DNA of 64,000 nucleotides from Candidatus Omnitrophota bacterium (GTDB lineage: Bacteria; Omnitrophota; Gorgyraeia; JABMRN01; RBG-13-46-9), in contig JADHYN010000001.1 of assembly GCA_016782425.1 (NCBI GenBank), positions 67,100 to 131,099 on the forward strand. The letters are read 5' to 3'. Below the pieces are notes generated by a model. That model was not told the origin of the DNA, did no database searches, and saw only the letters and a list, made by a program, of their open reading frames with translations. The position numbers were made by a program, and so were the translations under genes. Position 1 is the stretch's first letter. Each line of letters starts with the position of its first letter. Positions 43,182 to 60,300 of this stretch are shown here, in pieces.

Positions 43182-46100
43182 TTACATTAATGGATCCATC
43201 GTAACAGCAGGATGCCCTTTTTCTGTTAAAAATTTTACGAGCGCTTCTGATTCAGTCGCGTTCTCTTCTGTAGCGATTTTATCAAATAAATCCGCTGCGC
43301 CGTCTTCCTCGCAACGCTTTTTAAGTTTGCCGACAAGCGCTTCTTTAAGTTCTTTCGGCATCCACACCAGACGTTTCAGGCCTCCGTCCGCAATCAGGAA
43401 TTTTTTACTTACTATGTAAAGCCTTCCCACACCCATGAACCCAGGTGTCTGGTTTCCGCCGCCAACAGAGCCCGCAAGCGTTGAAAACTTCATTCCTGCC
43501 GGCGTAAATCCGGCGTACTCGCGGTTTACCACCATAAATCCGTTTGCCTCCGGTAATATCGCTATGATACATTCAAAACACCCGCAAGCTGTGTCTGGAA
43601 ATGTCATAATTGAATACGCGTGGAACCTTTCAATAGCTTTATTTGACTTTTGATAAATAAATTCATTTACACCTTTCCATTCACCTTTTACGGGATCGAT
43701 AATCTCACCTTTTTTAACCGGCTGGTTTGGGCCTGTTGGACTAAGTTCATAACAAGCTTTCGCATCAATGTAACTATAGGCGCCGCACAAGCCTATTCTT
43801 TCTGGCTTAACTATACATACATGATTTGGCGCAAATGATTGGCAGTTTTTGACTACAATCCCATTTACTAAATAATTATGCGGACCAGGTACGCTAAAAT
43901 TGTAAACTGCCTTTTGGTTATATTCAATGCTTTCTATCTTCTTTACCTTAACAAAATTAATTTTGGAATAACACCAAGCATAGAGTTCTTTAAATAAGCT
44001 GTTTCCGGTATTGATGTTGGGCTTTAATTCATCCAAAAGTGCTGCTAGTTTTTCTTTCGAAATACGATATTTAAATTCTATCCAGTCGTTTATTATTCCG
44101 CGATCAACTGCGGAAAGGTGTGACTTGATAATCTTAAGTGAGCTAAATAATTTATCAACTATACGACTGCAAAGCCAAGGAACCGTATCCGTCCTTATAG
44201 TGTGGTATTTGTCTTGGTTAAATTTCAGGGTTTCCATTCGCGCTTTTTTACCGGAATGCTTAGATGAGACAGCCGTTGTAAACTTCTCATATTCAACTCT
44301 GTTTTGTACACAAACTTGGTAACAACCCGTGGCTTTTCTAATTGTGGTATGTATGCCCAATTTTTTAAATAAGAAATAAACATGCTGCGCTTCTTTGTAC
44401 CCTTTTGTAGAAATGGCAACTCCTGACTGTGTAACATGTCCGTCACCATCGAATAGCCCTTTAAGAAAAGAGCCGATAAATGTTGAAGGAAAGCGAGAAA
44501 TAACGCTCCCTTGCCATTTCATACTTCTGTTTGCCGGCCTAATTCCTAAATTAACTATGATGCTTGCTATAACAGGAGCATAAAGTTCGACCGTCCATGT
44601 CTTCTTGTGATGTTCAGCATATCTTGGCTTTGTTCTAACCCTACATTTATCAGCAAAATATCGTTCTGCAATGTTGCAAAATTCTTTAATTAGAGAATAC
44701 TCGGAATTTGTAAAAGTAATTCTAAGGGGTATTCCATCTTTAGATCTACTGTCATAACGAATTGTCCCGTCAGCAGCTATAAGACCTGCTATATACATAA
44801 AATCTTCTTTAAGAATTGTCTTTTTGAGAGACTGACCACGACTATTACCAAGTCTTGAAATCTTATGTTTAGCTGCATCCCAATCTAAGCTGATGTTTTC
44901 AAGAATCGCTTTTATTTCACTTATTTTGAGACGATTTGGTCCATTTATTCTACGTTTTTGTAAACCGCGATAGAACCTGTGATATTTAATACCTATCTGC
45001 TTTGCCGCTTTTTGAAGAGAGTTATATTTTGACAAAACTCGATCCCTTAACCACCCTATGAAATCCTCATCATAAACTTTAAGCGCATCCAAAACGAAAT
45101 CTATTAAATAGAATTCGTTTTTGGTTTTGTTTTCTACTGCATGAAGTAAAGTTTGTTTTGGAGAAAGCACATAGTCTACGTTTGTTATGTCACCTGCCTC
45201 AATCCAATCCAAACCCTGTTTAGTATCAACAAGAATGCGATGATTCTTGGTTAAAGTTATTGAATTTCCATCTCTTAAGGTAATTTTTATAAGTTTTTTT
45301 GGGGCAGGGTGTGCAAATAATTCTCCTATTGCTTTCTTTTTAATGCCCTGATTCTCGAAAGATAATACCTCTACATCATGTTTATCTGCTACAGTTTCTA
45401 TCACTCTTTCTATGGTATCAAAGGATCCATCCTTGAGAGTTATTAATTCTCCCTGCGGTACGCACAAAGTACACGAATAAAACGTATCCACGCTTTCGTC
45501 AGTCATGCCTTCAATGCGCGCATCACGCTCCTCGTAGGACTTAACCGCTTCAGGCATGATGCGCTCCACATCTTCTTTTTTCGTGTAAATAGTTATTTGC
45601 GCTTTATCCACTATTTTTCCGTACGTGTCATGGAAACGCGCGTGGAGTATCGTGCCAAAGTGTTTTAATTTAAAGCCCTTTTTCACAGCCTCCTTTGAAA
45701 TTCGTATCCAGCACATATTGCGTTGGCCCATATGGAATACGCCCATTGCCTCATTTAAAAATGAGTGGGCCTGTCTTTCCAGTATAGGTTCGAAATCAGG
45801 CTGCATTTTTCTTCCCGCGACTTCCATTAGAATGCCCAGGGGATAAGCCTCGCCCTCTTTCATATCGTCTATTTCCGGGCCTACTACCTCTATTTTGCCA
45901 TCTTCTACTTCGTCCAACGATTTTGACCGGGTAAATTCAAAAGCCGACGAGAATTTTCCCCCGAACTGGACATACATGTTCTGCCTTCTCACTCTCTCCC
46001 CTTCAAACGCGGCGCTGTAAGCGACGGGAACAGGGATTTTAGAAAGCTTTACCTTCACGCCCCGCACTTCTATCGAGCGCTGTACTATTTTCTTATAGTC

Positions 46101-46979
46101 AAACTCTTTTACGAGGTGCTCATAAGTACAGATGCCAGTGGGCTTTATTTCCGGTATATCCGTATCAGCTATGATAGGAAACCCCATATTTATAGCACCG
46201 GCGCCTGTTGCGTATTTAATATCGTCGAGCGGCCCGAGCGTTAAACCAAAAGCAAATACTCTTTCCTTGCAATATAAAAGGCAGTCTTTGGCGTTGCCAG
46301 CTTTTATGCCGCCGAACGTAAGCGCCCCGCGTATTGCCCAGTGCAAAGGATAAATCCCTGAAATCGTATCTCTTCCGTAAGGAACTATGTAGGTATCCCA
46401 GCCCATTTCCACTTTTTCTTCTATTAGCTGGTCTATTATGCTTTTTCCGTTAGATGATGACCCGACAAAAGTCATGATGTTGCGCTTTTGAAATTCACGC
46501 ACTATCTCAACGGCTGTTTTATTATCAGGCGCGGCTCCGAGAATCGCGGCAAAGCCCGGCATCCTCCCGTCGACAAGCTGTATGCCAAGTGTTCTTAATA
46601 TAGTATCGCTAAAAAAGCCGTTGCAGTCTTTTTGCGGCTCCTGATTGTAGAGATACCGCAGCACGCATATAATTTCCTCGGCTAAAAGAGCGGCAATCCC
46701 GGAATCAAGAGCGTCCCCGAGATACGGAAGCCACAAGTCTTTTGTCGGTTCATCGTGTATGAGGGATTTCGCTTCTTTTAATACCGGCAAAACTTCGTTT
46801 AAGGTTTTTACCTCTGCCCCGAGAAGCGCATTCGCCATGGGAAGGTAAAAAGCGGTTTCCGGGAATTCTATTTTTTGGTCTTTTCCTTTTTCCTCGAGCG
46901 CTTTATTTAAAAACTCTTCGGCCTGTTTTACAAGTTCCCGAGCGCCGCGTATGGCCGCTCCAGCCACTATCTTCGACAT
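43182..46979 (-). CDS. acsB: Acetyl-CoA synthase catalytic subunit AcsB, interrupted by an intein
   Basis: The flanks (505 + 220 aa) are colinear AcsB and carry CTL/C-QSFAPNHVC and ACGCFEC A-cluster motifs. The whole 1265-aa ORF is in one frame. Confidence 0.9.
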   Translation of the reverse strand: MSKIVAGAAIRGARELVKQAEEFLNKALEEKGKDQKIEFPETAFYLPMANALLGAEVKTLNEVLPVLKEAKSLIHDEPTKDLWLPYLGDALDSGIAALLAEEIICVLRYLYNQEPQKDCNGFFSDTILRTLGIQLVDGRMPGFAAILGAAPDNKTAVEIVREFQKRNIMTFVGSSSNGKSIIDQLIEEKVEMGWDTYIVPYGRDTISGIYPLHWAIRGALTFGGIKAGNAKDCLLYCKERVFAFGLTLGPLDDIKYATGAGAINMGFPIIADTDIPEIKPTGICTYEHLVKEFDYKKIVQRSIEVRGVKVKLSKIPVPVAYSAAFEGERVRRQNMYVQFGGKFSSAFEFTRSKSLDEVEDGKIEVVGPEIDDMKEGEAYPLGILMEVAGRKMQPDFEPILERQAHSFLNEAMGVFHMGQRNMCWIRISKEAVKKGFKLKHFGTILHARFHDTYGKIVDKAQITIYTKKEDVERIMPEAVKSYEERDARIEGMTDESVDTFYSCTLCVPQGELITLKDGSFDTIERVIETVADKHDVEVLSFENQGIKKKAIGELFAHPAPKKLIKITLRDGNSITLTKNHRILVDTKQGLDWIEAGDITNVDYVLSPKQTLLHAVENKTKNEFYLIDFVLDALKVYDEDFIGWLRDRVLSKYNSLQKAAKQIGIKYHRFYRGLQKRRINGPNRLKISEIKAILENISLDWDAAKHKISRLGNSRGQSLKKTILKEDFMYIAGLIAADGTIRYDSRSKDGIPLRITFTNSEYSLIKEFCNIAERYFADKCRVRTKPRYAEHHKKTWTVELYAPVIASIIVNLGIRPANRSMKWQGSVISRFPSTFIGSFLKGLFDGDGHVTQSGVAISTKGYKEAQHVYFLFKKLGIHTTIRKATGCYQVCVQNRVEYEKFTTAVSSKHSGKKARMETLKFNQDKYHTIRTDTVPWLCSRIVDKLFSSLKIIKSHLSAVDRGIINDWIEFKYRISKEKLAALLDELKPNINTGNSLFKELYAWCYSKINFVKVKKIESIEYNQKAVYNFSVPGPHNYLVNGIVVKNCQSFAPNHVCIVKPERIGLCGAYSYIDAKACYELSPTGPNQPVKKGEIIDPVKGEWKGVNEFIYQKSNKAIERFHAYSIMTFPDTACGCFECIIAILPEANGFMVVNREYAGFTPAGMKFSTLAGSVGGGNQTPGFMGVGRLYIVSKKFLIADGGLKRLVWMPKELKEALVGKLKKRCEEDGAADLFDKIATEENATESEALVKFLTEKGHPAVTMDPLM
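43845..45464 (-). mobile_element. 540-aa intein with a LAGLIDADG homing-endonuclease domain inside acsB
   Basis: It begins at Cys506 (CVPQGELITL) and ends ..NGIVVKN, followed by the +1 Cys (CQSFAPNHVC). LAGLIDADG-type motifs are YIAGLIAADGTI and FLKGLFDGDGHV. Confidence 0.85.
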
Positions 46980-47002: not shown

Positions 47003-47044
47003 AGCTTAAAGCTTACAACTTAAAGCTTACAGCTTATAGCTTAT
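47003..47044. repeat. 6 x 7-nt array (AGCTTAN) between the FAD oxidoreductase gene and acsB
   Basis: Units are agcttaa agcttac aacttaa agcttac agcttat agcttat. The array supplies the last codons and the TAA stop of the upstream gene. Confidence 0.8.
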
Positions 47045-48316
47045 TACGGTATCTCTAAATTCTTCTTCGCTAAACTTATCTTTGAACTTTCGTACCAGCG
47101 GTAACATTTTGGCATAATTAAAACTATCCTCGTACAGCATATCCTTTATACTCGATACGTCTATTTTCCTTTTTATTAAAACGCTTATTACGCCCGCCGC
47201 AGATATATCCCCCACAAGCACCATTCCGACGATTATATTATTTTTAAGAATAAATTTTTTGTAATTTTCGCCTCTTGTTGCATTTATAATTTCAGAACCC
47301 CCTTCTTTCGGCTTTGTAATGCCCATCGAAATCGAGGCAAGGCCGAAGAAATCCACCGAGTTCATCGAGAGCGAGCCTTCATAAATTTGTTTTTTGCCCA
47401 GCATATTGAAAGCGGCTACTCTTCCCTGCGCTACGGCGCATGGCCATAGCGCGTTCACGCGCGGCGTGCCTCTGGCTATGTCGCGCGTTTCTGCTACATC
47501 TCCCGCGGCAAAAATATTTTCATCAGAAGTCTCGAGGTATTGGTTCACGGTTATTCCCTGATCAACTTTAAGCCCGCTTTTTTTGGCTATTTCTACGTTT
47601 GGTTCTACGCCTTTACCTATTATAACGAGCTCACATTTAATTGTTTTGCCGTTATCAAGAACAACTTCCTCTATCGCACCTTTTCCTTTTATTTCCTTTG
47701 CCGCTACACAAGTTTCTATTTTTATCCCGCTTGCCGCAAGCTTACCGGCTATTATCGTCGCGGCCTCCGGATCAACCATCTGTGATAAGACATGCTGGCT
47801 TCTTACGACTACCGTTACTTCCTTGCCCTTAACCCTTAGCGCGTACGCGTCTTTTAAGCCTATGAGGCCACCGCCTAAAACAACCACATGTTTTACTTTA
47901 TCAAGCATTTTTATTATTCGGCGTGCGTCCTCAATGTTCCGCACAGTAAAGACGCCTCTTTTGTCCGCGCCTTTTATGTCAACCGTTTTCGCCGATGCAC
48001 CCGTAGCTATGAGCAGCTTGTCGTATAGTACCTTTGTTTCATCATCAAGAAGCATTTCTTTCTTTTTTCTGTCGATAGATATGGCCTTCTTGCCGAGATA
48101 CGTTTTGATTTTGTTTGCTTTATAAAAATCCCTATCTTTAAAATAAAGTTTTTCCTCACCTATTGAACCGGCAATAAGATATGTTAAAAGGCACCTCGAG
48201 TAAAGTAGAGATTCCTCCTCTGATATAAGCGTAATATCGCACTTTTTGTCATTTTTCCGCAGCACTTCGGCTGCGTTCACTCCGGCTGCGCTACCGCCTA
48301 TGATTACATATTTCAT
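47027..48316 (-). CDS. FAD/NAD(P)-dependent pyridine nucleotide-disulfide oxidoreductase (CODH-associated)
   Basis: VIIGGSAAG and VVLGGGLIG dinucleotide motifs. I chose the start at 48316, which forms an ATGA overlap with the cooF stop. The track's longer start is Cys/Arg-rich junk. Confidence 0.8.
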   Translation of the reverse strand: MKYVIIGGSAAGVNAAEVLRKNDKKCDITLISEEESLLYSRCLLTYLIAGSIGEEKLYFKDRDFYKANKIKTYLGKKAISIDRKKKEMLLDDETKVLYDKLLIATGASAKTVDIKGADKRGVFTVRNIEDARRIIKMLDKVKHVVVLGGGLIGLKDAYALRVKGKEVTVVVRSQHVLSQMVDPEAATIIAGKLAASGIKIETCVAAKEIKGKGAIEEVVLDNGKTIKCELVIIGKGVEPNVEIAKKSGLKVDQGITVNQYLETSDENIFAAGDVAETRDIARGTPRVNALWPCAVAQGRVAAFNMLGKKQIYEGSLSMNSVDFFGLASISMGITKPKEGGSEIINATRGENYKKFILKNNIIVGMVLVGDISAAGVISVLIKRKIDVSSIKDMLYEDSFNYAKMLPLVRKFKDKFSEEEFRDTVISYKL

Positions 48317-48810
48317 TTCTCTTTCGCTTTTTTTTCTTCGATGCGTTTTCTGAATTCCTCTTCCGTTCCAGCAAATAACGCCCCTGTCGGGCACGCAACA
48401 ACGCAAGCATAATCGTCCCTATCCGGGCAGAGGTCGCATTTTACCGCAATGTGATTCTCAACATCTCTCACGATAGCACCAAAGGGGCATGCCATCACGC
48501 ACATCCAGCATCCGACGCATTTTTCCTTATCCTGTATTGTAGCCCCTGTCTTTTCGTCTTTCGAAAGAGCACCTGACATGCACGCCGTGATGCATGGCGC
48601 ATCCTGGCAGTGCTGGCAATGCAGTGAAATAATTATCTTGCCGGAAGATTCGGCCTTTACCCTCTTTTTGGGTAAAGGTTTTTCTTTTAAAGCGTTGTAA
48701 ATATTTTTTGATTTTGAATGTTCAACCGCGCAAGCCATTTCGCATGAGCGGCACCCGATGCATTTGGTTATATCGCAATATATTTTTATATTTTTTGTTT
48801 TTGTTTTCAT
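48313..48810 (-). CDS. cooF: CooF-type poly-[4Fe-4S] ferredoxin
   Basis: Four CxxCxxCxxxC-type clusters (CIGCRSCEMAC, CQHCQDAPC, CVGCWMCVMACP, CDLC..C). Confidence 0.85.
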   Translation of the reverse strand: MKTKTKNIKIYCDITKCIGCRSCEMACAVEHSKSKNIYNALKEKPLPKKRVKAESSGKIIISLHCQHCQDAPCITACMSGALSKDEKTGATIQDKEKCVGCWMCVMACPFGAIVRDVENHIAVKCDLCPDRDDYACVVACPTGALFAGTEEEFRKRIEEKKAKEK

Positions 48811-51326: not shown

Positions 51327-54300
51327 TTAAGCTGACTGGAGAGTGCGCAAAATACCAAGATATTCTTTCTCGAGTTCAGGGGTCAGTGGGCCTACGGGGC
51401 GTAGGATATAAACTCTAAAGACAAGGCCGCTTTGCCTCATGTGAACCGCTACATTTAAGGCTTCGGCAAATGAATATGTAGAGTGCTTGTATAAACCCAC
51501 CAGAACCACAGGAACCTTAAGACTCGCTAAATTCTGCGGGTGTCCTCCAGGCCCTTTGATGAGAGCAAGTACGTCCCCGGCTCCTTCGGCTTTCATCACT
51601 TCAAGAAGCGCTCTTGCCTCTTTGGCATAATCCGATTGGGATTTTGGATGGGCTTTTATTAATCTCGGCTTTTCTCGGATAAGTTCATCCAGTGTTTTTG
51701 TAGTTACCTTTATTTTTCGGGAAGCGCGCTCTATCATATTTCTCATTATCTTTCCGTTTTTCTCTTTTCGCGCGTAAAGAAATACTGTCCCCCCTGCCAG
51801 CAAATCATGTTTTATAAGAACATCTTTAACCGTTTTTTCGAAGTCCACTACGGCAACTTCTTCTAACAGATCGTCTGCGTAAATCGCAATGCTCTGGCCC
51901 TTTACATCGTCCTCGCCTAAAATCTCGTCCGCTTCCTTAGCCCGCTTATTATATTCTTCCAGATTCTCACGACGTAATATTTCATTGAAAATGATGAATT
52001 CTTTTTCCTCGTCTAAATCAGTTTTGGCCGCAAGCACTTCCTGCTTTCCGAGCAATATCCTTAATCTCGCAAAATCGATCGAGTGCGGAATGCCTTGCGA
52101 ACGTTGGAGACGGGCATATAACTTATCAACCGCTTTCTGTATTTCACCAAGCCGCATTTCTCCAACAGCTTTTTCTCCGGGCCGCCTGGTTCCCGAGGAC
52201 ATCTTTGTTGGTAATGAATATTTTTCGGTTTCCTCCCCATCAACTCGCAAGTCTTTCCTGATCTTGCTTCTTAAGTTTTCCACAAGCACGTCCAGTCTTT
52301 CGTCAGTTATTGATAATCTTTCAAGTATTCTCGTTTTATGCGTGTCCTGCCCTGCCTCGGATAGTACAGCTTCTAATTGTTGCGTCATTTCTTCTCTGTC
52401 AGCCACGTAACGGCTCCTTATCGTCTCATAGCCCCTGCGAAAACCGCGTAAATAGTTTTCCATGTTATCTATGAAAGTTTGCCTGTCATGAGGAAGGACC
52501 CAGCCCGTTAAAGAATACATAGTCCTGGAAGCCTCGTAGAAATCCTCTTCTGGCGATTTCTCAAGATAGCGCCTGGTAAGCAGGTTCTCTCTGTCTATAT
52601 TTACAATTGCCCTTTTTTTAATATCCAGCAATTCTTCTTCGGAATATCTTTTTATCTTTTTGATATTTATTACAAGATTATGCCATCTATCGCACATTCC
52701 AAGGACATGTGCCTCGGCCATGGCAGCGCCCAAAGAAAAGAAAAACTTTTCCATAAATTCTTCGTTCGCGGAATGCGTACCCAACTCACTTAGAAAATCA
52801 ACCATGTCCACGCCGCGTATTTCGCGTATATAGACGTACCGCTTTCCCTCTTCCACCCAAACATGAACACCTCTTATGGCGTCAATTAACCTGTTTCCCG
52901 TAATGTGCGAAATATTGTCAAAATCGCCGCTTATCTCTTTGTCCTTTATTACCGTCCTCATCGGAAATCCATGTTCATCTATGATTACCGCGAAATACGG
53001 CATAGTCATAGCCATGTCGCATATATATCTGGAAATAGCCATCCTGCCGCTTTTTCTCCTTAACATTTTTGATCCGGGAAAATCTTTCATTATATGTTCT
53101 GAAAGTTGTCCTGCGCTACCTTCCGGAACGTCGGTAAATATCGTTCTGTGCGAAGCGGTTGTTCTTTGAACCGTAGCTCCTTCAAGGAAAACTAATTCTT
53201 TCATATCGTCAAAAATTCCTCCTACGGAATCCCTGCCCGGCAATTCAGAAATTGCTTCCTTCTGAAACCGCGTTAAAAGTTCTCTTTTTTTCATCCGGTC
53301 AAGTTTTCTAATGCACTCTAAATCGGCTTCCCCTCCGATGTCGCCCGTTTCTTTCCGCTTAACAAGCGCCAGCGCGACTTCGGCAAGCGCCTCTTTTCTC
53401 GGAATGTCGTCTCTGTCCCGCAATTTTTTAAAGAATGACCCTATTGAGGTCAGTTCTTCCGGCGAGGCGCTTTCTATGCGCTCTGTTAATGGCCTTATCG
53501 CATCTACCAGCAGCTCCTGGCTAACGCCTATTTGGTCATTATTCTCATTCGCCTTAAAAGCCTCAATAGCCCGCCGCGCTTCTTCAATCATACCTTCAAT
53601 GGGTTGAGAAATAGCCACAGAACCAATTCCAAAACCTGGTTTAGAGATGGGTTTTTGTTCATAGCCATGAACATCTGCAAAAAGTATTCCTTCTTCATCT
53701 TTAACATCAACGCGTGATGAGGGAACATCTTCTTCGGAAAAAATAAATGATGATGGGGGCCTATGTAAACCCTTGGGCCCGCCAAAATTTACGAAAACAA
53801 CCGGTTTCTTACATCGTATTGCAAGTTTCTTCGGCCATGCAACCGCTTCGGCCATATCAGTCCCTGCAGGTAACAGGATCACGTCTACTTCCTCAAGTAA
53901 TGAATACAAAGCTGTATCCAAGGATCTTTTAATTACATTTTTGCATTCGCTGCATATAAAAAGCGCTGCTTTGGTGCCGTTGATTACAAAGAATCGATTT
54001 TGCATGTTTCTCTCAAATTTATGGAATACGAGCGGCTCCTGTTTTGGCCGCAATATAGTATATGTGCAATTATATGACCCGGCCTTCTCTTGCTGATCCT
54101 TTCTGGTAGTTTCGATAAAATAACCAGCCGCAATACCAGTAGTTTCAACAAGTTTCTGGAGCGTTGAAATCCTATTTTCAGGATCAACATTGATGGAATT
54201 AGGGTCATCCATTGTTTCAGGGAAAATTACAATATCGGGCTTCCATGTTCCCCAGGTATTCATGACTTTAAGAATTTCAGCTATTCGATTTGTGTTATTA

Positions 54301-57300
54301 TGAAAATTATTTTCGGAAAGCTGAACGCCGCAAACCTTAAATGCATCATTTGCAGGTTGACGACGCGCGTACACGGATAATTCTAAATGTTCTGTTTTAA
54401 GACAAATAGGGACAGCTCTATTTTCCACGCCGATCTGCGACGCCGCCTCCGGACCTCGCAAGTCCGTAGAGGTCGGCTTTTGGCCATTGGTTATATCTTC
54501 CGCGCGCACAGCGCTGCCTGCGGCGCCGCGGTCTATCCCGCCCATGAGTATATTTTCCTCGGATGCGCTGTCGAGCCTTAGCAATTCCTCAATGGAAAGC
54601 GAACTATCGCTTATAAGTGACCCGCGAAGCGCGGAACATTCTTCGGAAAAACCGTCACTCTCATCAAGCTCTCCCTCCAAAAGCTTGCCTACCTTATCAT
54701 AGAAGCCGGTTATAATATCTTTCTGGTTAAACGCAAGTTGGTCAGACAGGATCTGCAGTAAATCTCTTGCATTACTTATATCGCTCGCAAAGTCAGATTC
54801 ATCCTTAGAACTTTCAATAGTGTCATAGTCAAAAACACTTAAAAGATTTGTGTTGTAGGGGCTTAAGACACTTCCATCTATGTTATGCATTTTACTGCGT
54901 TTGCCGCTTTTGAGAAGCGTATTCATGTTATGTGCAAGGTAAGAGGCCAGCCTGAGCCTGAAAGCCGCGGCTTTCAGTATGAATTCTACGGCTTTGTCCT
55001 TATCGAGCGACCGTCCGGAGGCATCTTCAACTACTATTTTCTGACCGTCTTTTCGTATTGTTAACCCGTAGTATCCAAAAAACAGCCTTAAGGTCTCTGG
55101 TTTATCCATTGAAAGCTCACTTGTTCTCGTGGAGACGGCTGTTTTGTAAAACATAACATACATGTCCTGGTCCATGCCAAGCATCTCCAGGGCCTTTTCG
55201 CGCTCGAGAAGGATTGTCTCTCCCATGTCGGCAAGAAGCGCGTTCCTTGTATTTTTACTGGCCATTGCTCGGCGCCTATCCGTTATTGCCGCGGGTATGG
55301 CCAGCGGCCTGAAGCCTGTTTCCGGGGAGAAGAAGATGTCTTCTTTGACGTTGAGTATCTCGGTAAGCGCTTTTATGTCGGGACGGGTCCTCATGAGCTT
55401 GCGGAACGCTCTGTGAAGGGATGAGGTTAATGCGGGGTCTATCTCGCTCTTTATAACTCCGCCGTCAAATCTTCCTATTTCGTTAACATCATAAAAAATA
55501 TGAAGCCCCGGAATAGTGCTAAATGCGTAAAAATTGCCCGAGCCCTTAAAGACAAAAGACGGTTCGCTATCTGTGTGACGCGATCTTCCGTGCGTTTCGG
55601 AATTAACGCCTGAGACCATGGGAATTAAAAATAGGTTATTTATCGCTTTGAGGCCGGTCGCATCCTTAAGGCTCCTGCCAAGAATAGCATTCCTTTTAAA
55701 TACAGTATTGCCTCTTACGTCTTTTACCTTTCCTACAGGAATTATGATTCCTTTTTTTACGGCCTCCTGCACGCTTTTCATGTCCGAATCTCTGCCCGGT
55801 ATCATGATAGCGGGAACGAGGATGGTATTGGGAATGCTTGAGGCAAAAATGACCTTCTTTTTAAGAAGCCCGATGAGTTTTATTCTCTCTTTGTTTTCTG
55901 TGTTTTTTAATTCATCTTCAAGCTCTCTTATAAGGGATTCGCGTTTTTCGGGCGTTGCTTTTTTTCCGGCGCGAAGTGAAAAAATAATTCTGAGGAGATC
56001 AAATCTCTTCTCCTCGCATAGCCTTATGAGGGAAGATAACTTTTTAGGTTCCAGTTCACGGGATATGAATTCCAGATGTTTAATGTTTTCCGATATAAGT
56101 CGTGCGTTATCTCCTATTGTTTCTACATAACCAGCTAAATCTAGAGCGTTTATGTCAGTATGAGAAAAGTTTAATCCTGTAGCTTTGGCAAGCTCGATAA
56201 GAGCGAGGGATTTTTCGTAAGAGTCTTCTATTTCATCTATTGCGCCTCGGGCGAGTTTAAGGTCCTTACGGGTTTTAGTTGCTTTGGCAAGTTCTATAAG
56301 GGCGAGGGATTTGTAGTGAGGACGCTGTATTTTATCTATTGCGCCTCGGGCGAGTTTAAGGTCCTTACGGGTTTTAGCTGCTTTGGCAAACTCTAAAAGG
56401 GCGAGGGATTTTTCGTAAGGATACGGTATTTCATTCATTGCGCGGCGTATTTTTTTATTCAAGGCGATTTCCTCAAGCACATTAGAAGCTTCTTCTAAAT
56501 ATGCCTTGCGTACGGGTTCTTCGTCATCCACAGGTAATGTCGCCATTGCAAGCACCCCGCCTCTTATAAACTTCTCAAGATTATACAATCCATGAATAAG
56601 CATAATAAGCGGAAGAGCATATGAAGGAATAAAGAATATAAAAGCAAGATATGCTGTTCGGATTAAGAGGACTATTCTTAGTATATCTCTTTTGTCCTTG
56701 TAATTAGCGGATTTTTTTTCGATAATGCCATTGTTTACTTTTAAAACATACCAGAAGTGCACGGCAAAGAAGAGAAAGAAACTTACACAGGAATTCGCGA
56801 TTACATGATTGAATAATGGCGCTTCCTCGATGATAATACCGCTAAAGATATATTCTTCTATCATGCTTGCTAAGAAAACAAAAATTCCTATTGAAAATTT
56901 CGAAACGTTTTTAGCTTGTAACCAACTAATCAGTTTCCACCAAAGGCCTGGAACCATGCCCAGCGGAACTTCGTGTCGGCCGGAAGTAAGGCTACTATCG
57001 CCTATCTCTTCCTCGCGCGCGGAGGTAGCCGTTTCAGGCAGGCTCCATTCTGATATTTTCGGCGGGACCTCTTCATTCAGTTTCTCGCTTACCGCTATAG
57101 AACGCGTAAATGGTTTCCTTGAATGATTCACAACTGCTCTTGAGAAAGTAGAACCACCAAATATTTCATATTCAGAATACGTTTCTTGTTCGGAACGTAA
57201 ATATTTACGCTTAAGGTGTTTTGCTATTTTTACTATCATATGAGCAAAATCAATGATATAGCTTAAAACTATAACGCCGACAACAATAACACCCGCAATA

Positions 57301-60300
57301 ATCGCAAACAATGAATCCGCGCGATAAAGCATCTTAAAACCGCGCCCAAAAACGCAACCTGTGACCAAACTGGTAAGAAATGCTAAAATTACTGTTTTTC
57401 TAATTGCTTTCTTATATTTTCCAAAATCCGGTTTACCGGAACTAGATTGTAGTGCCGTTACGGCCGCAGAAGGCGTGGCTTTCACCGCACCATCCTCCGA
57501 AACTACTTTCGGAACTGGCTTGCGCCCGGTATGGGAATCAAGAAATCCTATATCTTTACCTTCGGTTCCTTCGGTACTGAATGGTTCTATAGGATGTCCA
57601 AAACTTAAAAGAGTAGCTTCTTGCCTGCTATCACCCGCCTCTTTTTCGCACGCGGGGGTAAGCAAGGCTTCTGGTTCATCCAATCTACGAACTTCTTCGG
57701 ACTTTACCGCTGATAACATTTTTCCTATGTCAAGAACTTGTATTGTGGTTTCCGGTTTGCGTTGATATATTTCAAAAAGGTTTTCTATTTTTGTAATGTC
57801 GAATTCATCTTCAACGTCAAGCCAATTTTCGCTTGAAAAGAATACTACATATTTCGCGCCCGGCTTAAGCCCTGTAGGGCTTAGTAATTTTTCTTTTAAT
57901 CTTTGCTTAAAATCTTCCATGCTTTCCTGGCTTAACAGACTCCCTGGCCAGTGAAAAATAATGTCAAACTCTGACAGATCTCGACCAAAATAATCGCCTT
58001 GTTTAAAATGGACGTTCTGAGAGCCGAGATTTTCTAATCCCCGGCTACCTGCAATTTCTCTATAGAAAATAAGTTTCGCTTTTCTGGCTAGTTGGGCATT
58101 TAATTCATTGCCATAAGTATCCAACCCCAAAGCAGCCATTGCGGCCATCAGCCTGCCGTCACCAAAGCCCATATCATAAAATTTAGCGCAAGACGGTACA
58201 TTTAATTTTTTGCACAGCCGCCAAAACGCTTCGATCCCAGCCATCGATATAGGCAAATATTCGCATGTAGGCTCATTGACGCCATGTGTGCTATATAAAC
58301 TCGAGACATTATCTATGATTTGCATTTCTTCTTCGGTTAAGTCCACATCAAGCATGATTTCATCTGCTTCTGAACCGCGTAGGCCCGAAGCGCTCAAATT
58401 CTCCTTCCCTTCGTCGCCGCGCGAAACTGTATTCGCTGCAAAATCAACCTGTGCTCTACCTTGATATTTTTTTGATAACGTGGCGAATAAGAGCTTTCTC
58501 ACTCCGAATGGTATGAATGGAATGTTGGCTAAAATAAGATTGAACCAGTGCGGGGTAGATTGACGTATGGCTAATAATTCATGTAGAATATGTCTGTGAG
58601 TTGCGCCGTTAAGAAGTTTTGCATAGATGTTTACAGGAGCATCCAGACGCATTTTTCTTCCTGTCTCTACTCCCGCATACAGCCAGAACGCGGGCCATTT
58701 TTGATGGCCTGAAACAATAAAGTTTATACCTAGCTTTTCAATATCCAGGTGCTCTTTTGTCAGTCTTTCATATAGTTCTAATGCCTTTTTCACGATTGGC
58801 GCATCATTATAAGCTACTGATGGTTTCATCCTGAATCTTCGTTCTAAGCTACCCAGCTCTTCTTTCACATCTTTTTCAGTCGCTCCCAGTAAGTTGCGCT
58901 CGGCAGGCTTCATCTCTCCGTCAAAATCCGCTTCACCCTCTATTTCTACGAGCCACTTGGTGCGACAGATATCAGAAATCACATAAAGACTTACAGAATC
59001 AGTGAAAATTTTTCTGCATATATCTTTCACACGCTCCGGATCATGAGTGCGTTTGACATAAACCCTTATCTGATGCACATCTTTAAAAGCCGGTTTTGCG
59101 GTTATCCTATGTTGCGCAAGATTGGGTTGTGACATCAAGACCGCGATATTGTCAATCGTAACCCACGTTTGGGCCTCGATAGCGGTTTTAGCGTAAATAG
59201 CTGCCTGCCGGCCAGGCTCACCAAAGTTTTTCATTTCAACCTGAAAGCCGCGTGCTCTTAATGCATCCGGGCCTCCGGCAACTAAGGCTATGTTCTTTAT
59301 CTTAACCCATGTGGGCACATAGTTATCATCGGGATATAAAACATCTTCTCCCTTTACAGAAGCTGTTCCGGAAATATACAGCTTAACCTTTTTACTCGCT
59401 TTTCTTACAACCGCCTTTGCCCTTTCGAATTTAGGGGATGGCTTTGATCCTTTTTCGTCTCCGACAAGAACGCGCTGGCTGTAATTATAAGGGGCTATCT
59501 GTTCGGGGTTTTCAACAGGCACTATCGAAATAGCGGTTTCATCTGTCTTAGCGGCTATGAATTCAATGGTAACGCCCCCGGCATCAATACCTATACCTGT
59601 TGCAGAGGCATAACCGTTTTTGAAAGCTGACGCTGCGTAATATTTTGCCCGGATACCGCAGAATATAGTGTAATTATTCGTCTTGCCATCGCCTTCCACG
59701 GGTATTTCTACGATGTCCTCTACATAATTCCATTGCCGCACGACGTCGTCAAAGCTTAATCCCTCTCTATCCAGAATAGCTTTCATGATAGAGAAGACTT
59801 CTTCAGATTGGGCGTGCCTACCTTGAATTTCTTCGCCGGCTGTTATACCGGTTACATGTAAAAATTTTGAGCCCCCTATTTTTATAACCGCGTATCGCAC
59901 GCTGCGGAAAACCTTATGCTCAATTTTTAAATCACGGCCTTTCAAAGGTAAAAGCACTGTTACTTCCATGCTAACATTCGAGCCGTCAACAGATGGCTGG
60001 GCTACGAAGCTTGCGGGCATAGAATTGTTTTCGTAGAAACGATCTATGCAAGCTGTGAGGTTTTCTTTTTTAGCAAAATAATCGTGCCCTTTCGCTGCTT
60101 TTATAAAGACTGTTTGTTTTATTATGGCACCTTTTTCAGCGCCCAATTTAGCCAGATTCTTTCGCAGCGTAGACAGGCAATTCTTGAGTTGCTCCTCGTG
60201 GCTGCCGGCTTCTTCAGGAATAATAGTAAACTTGATTTCCCGGTAAACTCCGTTATCGATCTCTTTGTAAGAGGTTTTGCCGGGCCGGTCAGCGGGCCTT

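What the first reader, a model, noticed from the sequence alone, without database searches (positions are those of the whole stretch)
43845..45464. LAGLIDADG intein inserted in the A-cluster CxxC motif of acetyl-CoA synthase (AcsB)
The acsB ORF is 1265 aa, but residues 1-505 plus 1046-1265 (725 aa) form a complete, colinear AcsB.

The 540-aa insert has these features:
- It starts with Cys (..DTFYSCTL|CVPQGELITLKDG).
- It ends ..HNYLVNGIVVKN| and is followed by Cys (|CQSFAPNHVCIVKPER).
- It contains two LAGLIDADG-type motifs (YIAGLIAADGTI, FLKGLFDGDGHV).
- It looks AT-richer than the flanks.

Removing it restores C-T-L-C-Q-S-F-A-P-N-H-V-C. By homology to Moorella AcsB, that is the Cys506/Cys509/Cys518 [4Fe-4S]/Ni-bridging motif. 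The +1 splice nucleophile would therefore be the cluster-to-nickel bridging cysteine, and ACS cannot assemble its active site without splicing.

The penultimate intein residue is Lys rather than the usual His. I am not aware of a characterised AcsB intein.
Basis: partly seen in the sequence, partly recalled or inferred. Interest (0 to 1): 0.8.

Follow-up and report, generated by a model that had tools for sequence, protein, structure and literature searches.

The report
Intein splitting acetyl-CoA synthase's metal site
The gene for acetyl-CoA synthase, the key enzyme of the Wood-Ljungdahl carbon-fixation pathway, is interrupted exactly at a metal-binding cysteine by a 540-residue self-splicing mobile element (an intein with a homing endonuclease), which almost certainly has to cut itself out before the enzyme can build its nickel-iron-sulfur centre.

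Summary
ORF 43182-46979 (-) is a 1265-aa AcsB. Residues 506-1045 (window 43845-45464) are a class-1 intein carrying a LAGLIDADG homing endonuclease. It sits between Leu and the cysteine equivalent to Moorella Cys509, the thiolate that bridges the [4Fe-4S] cluster to the proximal nickel.

Evidence:
- Pfam and NCBIfam intein and LAGLIDADG models match.
- Both AcsB halves abut on one residue of solved ACS structures.
- A confident AlphaFold model resembles PI-TkoII and PI-PfuI.
- Intein-less 725-aa alleles exist at up to 89% extein identity.
- The intein is the lowest-GC stretch of the window.

The element is not unique. I found 37 same-site inteins among the best AcsB hits and about 27 in GTDB species genomes labelled with at least eight phylum-level names. 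All have Cys1, TxxH, C-terminal Asn and Cys+1, plus two conserved oddities: Lys instead of the penultimate His (31 of 37) and Asn instead of Asp at block F:4 (37 of 37). Related pairs give dN/dS of 0.08-0.18, endonuclease domain included. Intein and extein divergence are decoupled.

I found no paper describing an AcsB intein. Splicing itself is inferred, not shown.

Verdict: a new member of a known kind.

The parts
43182..46979 (-). acsB precursor gene (1265 aa): N-extein, intein and C-extein in one reading frame
   Evidence: ORF. NCBIfam NF040764 CODH_ACS_al_bet, 1005 bits, in two stretches. E 5e-206 to solved ACS structures.
45465..46979 (-). N-extein, AcsB residues 1-505. It ends ...DTFYSC(-3)TL(-1).
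   Evidence: Pfam CODH_A_N and CdhC.
45471..45473 (-). Cys at extein position -3 (equivalent to Moorella Cys506, a [4Fe-4S] ligand). It is a possible disulfide partner of intein Cys1.
   Evidence: Precedent: the Cys-3/Cys1 disulfide in the Pab MoaA intein (PMC3922620, PMC10663303).
43845..45464 (-). Intein, 540 aa: a Hint splicing domain split by a LAGLIDADG endonuclease and helical accessory domains
   Evidence: AlphaFold model pLDDT 90.7, pTM 0.91. Foldseek to PI-TkoII (2cw7) E 1e-20, TM 0.64.
45426..45464 (-). Block A, CVPQGELITLKDG. Cys1 (45462-45464) is the step-1 nucleophile.
   Evidence: C1 is invariant in 37 of 37 same-site inteins. TIGR01445.
45240..45251 (-). Block B, T72-K-N-H75 (TxxH)
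   Evidence: T72 and H75 are invariant.
44766..44795 (-). LAGLIDADG motif 1, YIAGLIAADG (acidic residue D232)
   Evidence: G227, L228, A230 and G233 are invariant; D232 is at least 90% conserved. Pfam LAGLIDADG_3.
44436..44468 (-). LAGLIDADG motif 2, FLKGLFDGDGH (acidic residue D341)
   Evidence: G336, F338, D339, G340, D341 and G342 are invariant.
43860..43907 (-). Block F, VYNFSVPGPHNYLVNG. It has Asn522 where Asp (F:4) is usual; His529 is present.
   Evidence: V520, Y521 and N522 are invariant; H529 is at least 90% conserved. The usual residue at F:4 is given in PMC4031507.
43845..43859 (-). Block G, IVVKN: penultimate Lys539 in place of His, and terminal Asn540
   Evidence: N540 in 37 of 37. 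Penultimate residue: K in 31 of 37, R 2, and S, H, Q, A once each. TIGR01443.
43842..43844 (-). Cys+1. It is the splice nucleophile and is equivalent to Moorella Cys509, the thiolate bridging the [4Fe-4S] cluster to the proximal nickel (Nip).
   Evidence: Role of Cys509: PMC2707248, PMC10299331.
43182..43844 (-). C-extein, AcsB residues 1046-1265 plus the stop codon. It is most of the A-cluster domain and holds C515, C525 and the C592-G-C594 nickel motif (extein numbering).
   Evidence: Pfam ACS_CODH_B_C: residues 1045-1265 match profile positions 24-245..

Best explanation
This is a class-1 intein carrying a LAGLIDADG homing endonuclease. It is inserted in frame in acsB between Leu505 and the cysteine equivalent to Moorella Cys509.

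The gene is translated as a 1265-aa precursor that cannot hold an A-cluster. Its first two [4Fe-4S] ligands (the C-x-x-C) are separated by 540 residues, and the bridging cysteine is locked in a peptide bond at the splice junction.

Inferred steps of splicing:
1. Cys1 attacks the Leu(-1) carbonyl, helped by Thr72 and His75.
2. Cys+1 takes over the N-extein, giving a branched thioester.
3. Asn540 cyclises. Lys539 and His529 probably take the role usually played by the penultimate His.
4. An S-to-N shift restores ...YSCTL-CQSFAPNHVC...

The result is a normal 725-aa AcsB, which can then receive its Fe-S cluster and nickel (a CooC-like ATPase gene lies in the same operon).

At the DNA level, the endonuclease cuts intein-less acsB alleles at this highly conserved site and the element is copied in (homing). 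That would explain its sporadic spread across phyla.

Shown here: the anatomy, homology, fold, insertion site, presence/absence polymorphism, purifying selection in relatives, and discordance between intein and host divergence.

Inferred, not shown: splicing activity, endonuclease activity, and the role of Lys539.
For: - Intein and endonuclease models match above their curated cut-offs.
- Both AcsB halves meet at one residue of solved ACS structures.
- The cysteine spacing is identical to the Moorella A-cluster ligands (roles from PMC2707248, PMC10299331).
- The AlphaFold model is confident (pLDDT 90.7, pTM 0.91). Its best PDB matches are the intein endonucleases PI-TkoII (E 1e-20, TM 0.64), the TliVMA intein, PI-PfuI and PI-SceI. 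I-DmoI and I-SceI match the endonuclease core.
- A precise empty site exists: L001 (protein P0024) reads ...TGTACCTTG|TGCCAGTCA... with no insert, at 89% protein identity and about 75-77% nucleotide identity in the exteins.
- 37 same-site inteins were found among the best 126 AcsB hits. All have Cys1, terminal Asn and Cys+1.
- Invariant across them: C1, T72, H75, both LAGLIDADG cores, K368, V520-Y521-N522, N530, N534 and N540.
- 27 complete same-site copies occur in GTDB species genomes titled Omnitrophota, Aerophobetes, Anaerolineae/Chloroflexota/Thermoflexus, Bipolaricaulota, Fraserbacteria, Armatimonadota and Clostridia. Poribacteria appears.
- Across 19 related pairs, dN/dS is 0.08-0.18 overall, 0.01-0.12 in the N-terminal Hint part and 0.06-0.19 in the endonuclease domain.
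- Divergence is decoupled. Window versus P0009: exteins 94% aa and 88-90% nt, intein 44% aa and 54% nt. P0022 versus P0093: extein 49%, intein 55%.
- The intein is the lowest-GC stretch of the 64-kb window.
- acsB sits in a complete acs operon: CooS/AcsA, AcsC, RACo, a CooC-like ATPase, AcsD, AcsE and FolD. It is the only acsB and the only intein in the window, so the pathway needs a spliced product.
- Inteins without a penultimate His are known to splice; about 5% of functional inteins lack it (PMC4031507).
Against: - There is no experimental or proteomic evidence of splicing for this or any AcsB intein.
- Two assisting residues are non-canonical: Lys instead of His at G:6 and Asn instead of Asp at F:4. 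I know of no characterised intein with this pair.
- The dN/dS evidence comes from relatives in Chloroflexota, Aerophobetes and Omnitrophota. The window's own intein has no relative above about 61% identity, so its selection state is inferred only from its retention of every family-invariant residue.
- Only 64 kb of the genome is visible, so a second, intein-less acsB elsewhere cannot be excluded.
- Taxon names are the submitters' record titles and were not checked.
Confidence: 0.88

Rival explanations
1. Same element, but splicing is conditional. The precursor carries three cysteines at the junction: Cys-3, Cys1 and Cys+1. Under oxidising conditions a Cys-3/Cys1 or Cys1/Cys+1 disulfide would block splicing. 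Binding of Fe, Ni or Zn to these thiolates could do the same. Oxygen-labile ACS would then mature only in a reduced cell, and the intein would act as a post-translational switch rather than a pure parasite.
For: - C-T-L|C places a Cys at -3, exactly the arrangement of the native redox trap in the Pyrococcus abyssi MoaA intein. A Cys1/Cys+1 disulfide blocks the Pab PolII intein (PMC3922620, PMC10663303).
- The arrangement is invariant in all 37 same-site inteins.
- The nearest non-AcsB relatives sit in other CxxC or Fe-S motifs, in three of five host families with a Cys at -3.
- Divalent cations inhibit several inteins (PMC4031507).
- The family persists under purifying selection.
Against: - The Cys at -3 is there because it is an A-cluster ligand that the host cannot change, so its presence needs no regulatory explanation.
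- Inteins typically land in the most conserved active-site motifs anyway.
- No data on redox or metal dependence exist.
- Frequent intein-less alleles in close relatives show the host does well without it.
Confidence: 0.2
2. The intein is splicing-dead, crippled by Lys at G:6 and Asn at F:4. This acsB would then be a disabled gene, and the organism does not use it or relies on another copy.
For: There are non-canonical residues at two assisting positions. Only 64 kb of the genome is seen. No experiment has been done.
Against: - The same Lys/Asn pair is conserved in dozens of intact, uninterrupted precursors across many phyla.
- dN/dS is about 0.1-0.2 in both the splicing and endonuclease parts.
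- The exteins stay 87-96% identical to close relatives and keep all A-cluster ligands.
- The operon is intact.
- A dead intein in a dead gene would accumulate stops and frameshifts.
Confidence: 0.05
3. The insert is a permanent, non-excised domain of a specialised AcsB, for example a DNA-binding or regulatory module derived from an intein.
For: Large inserts derived from Hint or LAGLIDADG domains do exist in some proteins. The insert is under purifying selection.
Against: - It splits the C-x-x-C of the [4Fe-4S] cluster and occupies the position of the bridging Cys.
- All splice-junction residues (Cys1, TxxH, Asn, Cys+1) are invariant. A retained domain would not need them.
- 725-aa alleles without it are the majority among close relatives.
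Confidence: 0.02
4. It is an assembly or binning artefact: a chimeric contig joining acsB to an unrelated intein gene.
For: The source is a metagenome-assembled genome.
Against: - The identical 1265-aa protein is on record from 5 contigs in several sources.
- The insert is in frame and exact to the codon.
- Dozens of independent assemblies carry homologous inteins at the same codon.
Confidence: 0.01

Closest known systems
PI-TkoII (Thermococcus kodakarensis Pol intein-2, PDB 2cw7) and PI-PfuI (PDB 1dq3): archaeal inteins with LAGLIDADG endonuclease and extra DNA-binding domains
   Same: Overall multi-domain fold: a Hint domain split by a LAGLIDADG core plus helical accessory domains, and a similar size (537 against 540 aa). 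Foldseek gives E 1e-20, TM 0.64 for PI-TkoII and E 1.5e-16 for PI-PfuI. Both have two LAGLIDADG motifs with acidic residues.
   Different: Only about 15% sequence identity. The hosts are replication proteins of archaea, not a bacterial metabolic metalloenzyme. As far as I recall, those inteins have the usual block G His. This one has Lys at G:6 and Asn at F:4.
Pyrococcus abyssi MoaA intein (native redox trap; Callahan et al. 2011, as described in PMC3922620 and PMC10663303)
   Same: An intein in an oxygen-sensitive metabolic enzyme. A native N-extein Cys at -3 lies next to catalytic Cys1 and can disulfide-bond and block step 1. The AcsB junction reads C(-3)-T-L-|C1.
   Different: Redox control is shown for MoaA and only conjectured here. 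No sequence comparison with the MoaA intein was made. The original paper could not be read.
Mycobacterium tuberculosis SufB intein
   Same: An intein interrupting a protein of iron-sulfur metabolism, whose activity depends on splicing (PMC8891592, title and abstract seen).
   Different: SufB is a cluster-assembly scaffold, not the catalytic metalloenzyme. The insertion is not, to my knowledge, at a cluster ligand. I did not compare the sequences.
Functional inteins lacking the penultimate His (for example Ssp DnaE and the inteins of Chen, Benner and Perler 2000)
   Same: They splice without His at G:6. About 5% of functional inteins are of this kind, and other residues take over in Asn cyclisation (PMC4031507).
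   Different: In the cases I know, the replacement is Ala, Gly, Phe and the like. A family-wide conserved Lys, coupled to Asn at F:4, has not been characterised as far as I could find.
Uncharacterised metagenomic inteins in [NiFe]-hydrogenase large subunit, NuoB-like small subunit, 2-oxoacid:ferredoxin oxidoreductase beta and HdrA-like proteins (found here)
   Same: These are the nearest relatives outside AcsB: 195-280 bits to the AcsB-intein profile, against 176 bits or less for MCM and similar inteins. They have Cys1 and Cys+1, a non-His penultimate residue (Ser, Gly or Lys), and insertion at cysteine motifs, three of the five host families with a Cys at -3.
   Different: Identity is 25-31%. 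Most keep Asp at F:4. The host proteins differ. None is characterised.

Membership tests
Class 1 intein (Hint splicing domain) | N-terminal nucleophile Cys, Ser or Thr at position 1 (block A) | tested here: met
   Cys1 at 45462-45464. It is invariant in 37 of 37 same-site homologs. TIGR01445, 49.8 bits.
Class 1 intein (Hint splicing domain) | Block B TxxH motif | tested here: met
   T72-K-N-H75. T72 and H75 are invariant.
Class 1 intein (Hint splicing domain) | Block F with Asp (or Cys or Trp) at F:4 and His at F:13 | tested here: inconclusive
   The block is present (VYNFSVPGPHNY). His529 is present. F:4 is Asn522, invariant in the family, which is not one of the common residues listed in PMC4031507. 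My assignment of N522 to F:4 rests on a by-eye alignment to the usual VYD/VFD...HNF pattern.
Class 1 intein (Hint splicing domain) | Block G: penultimate His and C-terminal Asn (or Gln/Asp) | tested here: inconclusive
   Asn540 is present and invariant. The penultimate residue is Lys539 (K in 31 of 37 homologs), not His. His at G:6 is dispensable in about 5% of functional inteins (PMC4031507), so this does not exclude membership.
Class 1 intein (Hint splicing domain) | Cys, Ser or Thr as first C-extein residue (+1) | tested here: met
   Cys+1 at 43842-43844, invariant.
Class 1 intein (Hint splicing domain) | Hint fold | tested here: met
   Pfam Intein_splicing, 70.8 bits against a cut-off of 35.8. 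The AlphaFold model (pLDDT 90.7) matches intein crystal structures at E 1e-20 to 1e-9.
Class 1 intein (Hint splicing domain) | In-frame insertion in a conserved host protein, with intein-less alleles whose sequence is continuous across the site | tested here: met
   725-aa alleles. DNA of L001 is continuous at the site. Alignment to solved ACS structures.
Class 1 intein (Hint splicing domain) | Demonstrated protein splicing (excision plus extein ligation) | not testable with these tools
   This needs expression with SDS-PAGE or MS, or metaproteomics.
Class 2 / class 3 inteins | Class 2: no N-terminal nucleophile (Ala1). Class 3: Trp B:12, Cys F:4, Thr G:5 triplet with no Cys1/Ser1. | tested here: not met
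   Cys1 is present. F:4 is Asn and G:5 is Val. The element is therefore not class 2 or class 3.
LAGLIDADG homing endonuclease (double-motif, monomeric) | Two LAGLIDADG helices, each ending in a catalytic acidic residue | tested here: met
   YIAGLIAADG (D232) and FLKGLFDGDGH (D341). The cores are invariant. Pfam LAGLIDADG_3, 65.9 bits, two stretches. I-DmoI and I-SceI are structural matches, TM about 0.65-0.73 normalised to the target.
LAGLIDADG homing endonuclease (double-motif, monomeric) | Site-specific cleavage of the intein-less allele | not testable with these tools
   The evidence is indirect only. dN/dS is 0.06-0.19 in the endonuclease domain of relatives, and intein and extein divergence are discordant.
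Bacterial acetyl-CoA synthase AcsB (host protein) | Full-length match to the AcsB family model, and A-cluster ligands Cys506/509/518/528 and Cys595-Gly-Cys597 (Moorella numbering) | tested here: met
   NF040764, 1005 bits against a cut-off of 800. Extein C503/C506/C515/C525 and C592-G-C594 have identical spacing. E 5e-206 to solved ACS structures.
Bacterial intein-like (BIL) domain | A Hint domain in variable, non-conserved host proteins, usually without an endonuclease and without a +1 nucleophile requirement | tested here: not met
   The host is a highly conserved enzyme, the insertion site is fixed, Cys+1 is invariant and an endonuclease is present.

The most novel reading that the evidence does not exclude
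The AcsB inteins (site a here, site b at Cys595 elsewhere) and their nearest relatives in [NiFe]-hydrogenase, NuoB-like, OFOR-beta and HdrA-like proteins may form a clade specialised on metal-ligand cysteines of oxygen-labile anaerobic enzymes.

In this reading, the junction thiols (Cys-3, Cys1, Cys+1) make splicing depend on redox state or metal availability. The replacement of the canonical His at G:6 by Lys, Ser or Gly, and of Asp at F:4 by Asn in the AcsB lineage, would be an adaptation to that chemistry. The inteins would then act as maturation gates for carbon fixation and hydrogen metabolism, not only as parasites.
Probability: 0.15. Interest if true: 0.85.

Novelty: new member of a known kind. 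Interest (0 to 1): 0.6.

Why it matters
1. Most described inteins sit in replication, recombination and repair proteins. Here one sits in the central enzyme of the Wood-Ljungdahl pathway, and its +1 nucleophile is the thiolate that bridges the [4Fe-4S] cluster to nickel. Protein splicing is therefore an obligatory step before metallocluster assembly.

2. The element is widespread, not a one-off. It occurs in Omnitrophota, Chloroflexota, Aerophobetes, Bipolaricaulota and others. A sister intein occupies the second A-cluster motif. This gives a natural system for asking whether inteins gate the maturation of oxygen-sensitive enzymes.

3. The conserved Lys (G:6) and Asn (F:4) pair is an untested catalytic variant for Asn cyclisation.

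4. There is a practical consequence. NCBI names these proteins 'hypothetical protein' or 'LAGLIDADG family homing endonuclease'. Automated metabolic reconstructions of such MAGs could therefore miss acsB.

Tried and rejected
- The genome-collection scan with the single intein protein found nothing. It worked only with a 10-sequence alignment.
- The word-index homolog search with the intein alone returned only 6 hits. The full-length query was far more informative.
- Literature searches found no report of an AcsB intein or of hydrogenase inteins. The terms were intein with acetyl-CoA synthase, Wood-Ljungdahl, Omnitrophica, acsB/cdhC/carbon monoxide dehydrogenase, and hydrogenase. The apparent 'acsB' co-occurrences were journal names. 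One hit, on Desulfonema, concerned GyrB and DnaE inteins only.
- The original redox-trap papers are not held, so I relied on two reviews.
- A 2024 ACS paper had no ligand numbering.
- Cluster look-up gave almost no organism names.
- Considered and rejected, with reasons in the rival explanations and membership rows: class 2 or class 3 intein, BIL domain, permanently retained insert, pseudogene, assembly chimera.
- The + strand ORF 44011..44322 (103 aa), antisense within the intein, was dismissed as a by-product of AT-rich sequence. It was not tested further.
- dN/dS could not be computed for the window's own intein. Its closest DNA relatives are saturated at synonymous sites (about 54% nt identity).
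Full report
**Observation**

The minus-strand ORF 43182..46979 encodes 1265 aa. Residues 506-1045 map to window 43845..45464 and are exactly 540 aa. They start CVPQGELITLKDG and end GIVVKN, and they sit between ...DTFYSCTL and CQSFAPNHVC.... Removing them leaves 725 aa.

NCBIfam places the protein in the bacterial acetyl-CoA synthase family (NF040764, 1005 bits, matched in two stretches). phmmer against PDB sequences aligns the two halves to residues up to 508 and from 508 onward of Carboxydothermus ACS. The N-terminal half aligns up to residue 509 of Moorella 1oao_C (E about 1e-200).

The extein cysteines are C503, C506, C515, C525 and C592-G-C594. Their spacing is the same as Moorella Cys506/509/518/528 and Cys595-Gly-Cys597. 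Cys509 is the thiolate that bridges the [4Fe-4S] cubane to the proximal nickel. Cys595 and Cys597 bind the two nickels (PMC2707248, PMC10299331). The insert therefore lies inside the C-x-x-C, immediately before the bridging cysteine. It is 23 profile positions into the Pfam C-terminal A-cluster domain.

**What the insert is**

- Pfam Intein_splicing scores 70.8 bits and LAGLIDADG_3 scores 65.9 bits in two stretches. TIGR01445 (N-terminal splicing region) and TIGR01443 (C-terminal) also match. All are above their curated cut-offs.
- An AlphaFold2 model built on an alignment of 37 sequences is confident (mean pLDDT 90.7, pTM 0.91).
- Its best PDB matches are whole intein endonucleases: PI-TkoII (E 1e-20, TM 0.64 both ways), the TliVMA intein, PI-PfuI and PI-SceI. 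The free-standing enzymes I-DmoI and I-SceI match the endonuclease core.
- The secondary structure reads as follows: beta-rich Hint part (1 to about 105), helical region (about 106-215), LAGLIDADG core (about 216-400), second helical region (about 401-500), and closing Hint strands (about 501-540).

**Presence/absence and family**

The identical protein is in NCBI as a 'hypothetical protein' of a Candidatus Omnitrophica MAG. Close relatives of the host gene mostly lack the insert: 725 aa, up to 89% identity. One such allele (L001) reads straight through the site at the DNA level.

Among the best 126 AcsB hits, 37 carry an intein at this very codon. All begin with Cys, end with Asn and are followed by Cys. 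A scan of one genome per GTDB species found 27 complete copies at the same site. The record titles name Omnitrophota, Aerophobetes, Anaerolineae, Chloroflexia, Thermoflexus, Bipolaricaulota, Fraserbacteria, Armatimonadota and Clostridia. A Poribacteria record appeared. These names are the submitters' and were not checked.

Invariant residues across the family are C1, T72 and H75 (TxxH), both LAGLIDADG cores, K368, V520-Y521-N522, N530, N534 and N540.

Two deviations from the textbook intein are conserved family traits:
- The penultimate residue is Lys in 31 of 37 (otherwise Arg twice, and Ser, His, Gln, Ala once each).
- Block F:4 is Asn in all. Asp, then Cys or Trp, are the usual residues (PMC4031507).

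About 5% of functional inteins lack the penultimate His (PMC4031507). This does not argue against splicing, but the Lys/Asn pair is uncharacterised as far as I could find.

**Selection and mobility**

I computed dN/dS for 19 pairs of same-site inteins at 70-95% aa identity, taken from the GTDB loci. It is 0.08-0.18 overall, 0.01-0.12 in the N-terminal Hint part and 0.06-0.19 in the endonuclease domain. Both activities therefore appear to be maintained. The pairs are not independent, and none involves the window's own intein.

Intein and host divergence are only loosely coupled (Spearman 0.45):
- Window versus P0009: exteins 94% identical in protein and 88-90% in DNA, but inteins only 44% and 54%.
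- P0037 versus P0060: 95% against 54%.
- P0022 versus P0093: the intein (55%) is more similar than the extein (49%).

The window's intein is the lowest-GC 1620-bp stretch of the whole 64 kb (0.357 against a mean of 0.439, sd 0.025). Its GC3 is 0.29, against 0.49 and 0.39 in the exteins. Together with the empty sites, this is the pattern expected of a homing element that moves between lineages.

**Context**

acsB lies in a full acs operon. The neighbouring genes encode:
- CODH (Prismane family), a ferredoxin and a pyridine-nucleotide-disulfide oxidoreductase upstream;
- AcsC, the corrinoid activator RACo, a CooC-like ATPase, AcsD, the methyltransferase AcsE and a DRTGG protein downstream;
- FolD further upstream.

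A profile scan of all six frames finds no other intein in the window. The pathway therefore depends on this gene's product.

**Mechanism (inferred)**

The precursor cannot assemble the A-cluster. Standard class-1 splicing would restore C-T-L-C-Q-S-F-A-P-N-H-V-C:
1. Cys1 forms a thioester.
2. Transesterification to Cys+1 gives the branched intermediate.
3. Asn540 cyclises.
4. An S-to-N shift forms the peptide bond.

Lys539, with His529, probably substitutes for the missing His at G:6 in the third step. The endonuclease would cut empty acsB alleles at this conserved site.

**Rivals**

A dead intein, a retained domain and an assembly artefact are all disfavoured. The evidence against them is the invariance of the junction residues, the purifying selection, the intact operon, the abundance of empty alleles, and the many independent assemblies.

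A more interesting variant cannot be excluded. The junction carries Cys at -3, 1 and +1. A native Cys-3/Cys1 disulfide gates the P. abyssi MoaA intein, and a Cys1/Cys+1 disulfide blocks the Pab PolII intein (PMC3922620, PMC10663303). Splicing of this oxygen-labile enzyme might therefore be redox- or metal-conditional. However, the -3 Cys is a cluster ligand that would be there anyway.

**Beyond the window**

*A second insertion site.* Other AcsB proteins carry a second intein immediately before the Cys595-equivalent of the C-G-C nickel motif...P[EM]T[SA]|C...[KA]N|CGCFEC. There are mini forms (144-169 aa) and full forms (447-531 aa), and some proteins carry both inteins. The site-a profile hits the full-length site-b inteins at E 1e-55 to 1e-77. 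They share Asn at F:4 and a non-His penultimate residue (Lys 10, Ala 9). The two families are therefore sister clades.

*Nearest relatives outside AcsB.* An exhaustive search of 1.84 billion representatives gave only 7 hits at E of 1e-30 or better. The nearest non-AcsB relatives score 195-280 bits against the AcsB-intein profile, whereas MCM-type inteins ending His-Asn score 176 bits or less. All have Cys1, Cys+1 and a Ser, Gly or Lys penultimate residue. Their junctions are:
- [NiFe]-hydrogenase/Complex1_49kDa large subunits: ERICGI|C...N|C[SG]xxH
- NuoB-like small subunits: DCGS|C...N|CNGC
- OFOR beta-like TPP proteins: the C-terminal junction reads ...SN|CYDNE in four of them (CYNNH in P0171); the N-terminal junction, seen in only two, differs (DFIYV|C in P0139, RFLYI|C in P0168)
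- An FAD/Fer4 oxidoreductase: DC[AS]I|C...N|CIEGP
- Cbf5-like proteins

I found no literature on any of these.

**Novelty and score**

This is a bona fide intein of a known kind, in a host protein and at a site for which I could find no description. It has a conserved, uncharacterised catalytic-residue variant. It is scientifically attractive as a candidate maturation gate for carbon fixation and relevant to MAG annotation, but it is mechanistically conventional until shown otherwise. Interest 0.6.

Noticed in passing
Not in the window. Seen in relatives P0011, P0020, P0022, P0023, P0025, P0032, P0034, P0037, P0043 and others, and in loci L031 and L032. The equivalent empty site in the window is before Cys at 43584-43586.: A second AcsB intein site lies immediately before the first Cys of the C-G-C nickel motif (Moorella Cys595). 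There are 19 clean examples: mini-inteins of 144-169 aa and full ones of 447-531 aa. Some proteins carry both inteins (1650-1830 aa). They are clear homologs of the site-a inteins (E 1e-55 to 1e-77 for the full-length ones) and share Asn at F:4 and a Lys or Ala penultimate residue. The window's AcsB has this site empty.
   Followed up: partly
Proteins P0138, P0139, P0142, P0145, P0147, P0149-P0151, P0156, P0159, P0161, P0168, P0171 and P0179: The nearest non-AcsB relatives of this intein sit at cysteine motifs of other anaerobic redox enzymes: the [NiFe]-hydrogenase/Complex1_49kDa large subunit L1 motif RxCGxC, a NuoB-like small subunit, a TPP-enzyme beta subunit and an FAD/Fer4 oxidoreductase. 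Some also sit in Cbf5-like proteins. All have Cys1 and Cys+1 and a non-His penultimate residue, and three of the five host families have a Cys at -3. I found no literature on them.
   Followed up: partly
window 51327-61913 (-): A giant 3528-aa ORF lies directly upstream of the CODH/ACS operon. Pfam gives only two weak matches near residues 570-790 (Ribonuc_L-PSP and the FkbO/Hyg5-like N-terminal domain), and the rest is unannotated.
   Followed up: no
window 43182-46979, and NCBI names: Intein-containing AcsB proteins are named 'hypothetical protein' or 'LAGLIDADG family homing endonuclease' in NCBI records. The key Wood-Ljungdahl enzyme could therefore be overlooked in annotation-based metabolic reconstructions of these MAGs.
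   Followed up: no
Site-a intein family (alignment A2): The same-site inteins fall into at least two subtypes. A 539-540-aa type includes the window, P0001, P0008 and P0016, with ...RYDSRSKDG.P.R.TFTNSE and ATGCYQV. A roughly 545-555-aa type has an extra segment in the endonuclease domain. Near-identical hosts can carry different subtypes: window versus P0009 has exteins at 94% and inteins at 44%.
   Followed up: partly
window 47027-48406 (-) and 48313-48810 (-): A pyridine-nucleotide-disulfide oxidoreductase with a rubredoxin-reductase-like C-terminal domain, and a 2x[4Fe-4S] ferredoxin, lie between cooS/acsA and acsB. The same arrangement is seen in the intein-less locus L001. The listed ORF start of the oxidoreductase (TTG at 48406) overlaps the ferredoxin gene by about 90 nt, so the true start is probably further downstream.
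   Followed up: no
locus L026 (Anaerolineae, JAFGMS010000234.1): The tblastn match to the intein spans 2208 nt instead of about 1620. The translation after the expected end does not return to the CQSFAP extein. This could be an extra insertion or a disrupted copy.
   Followed up: no
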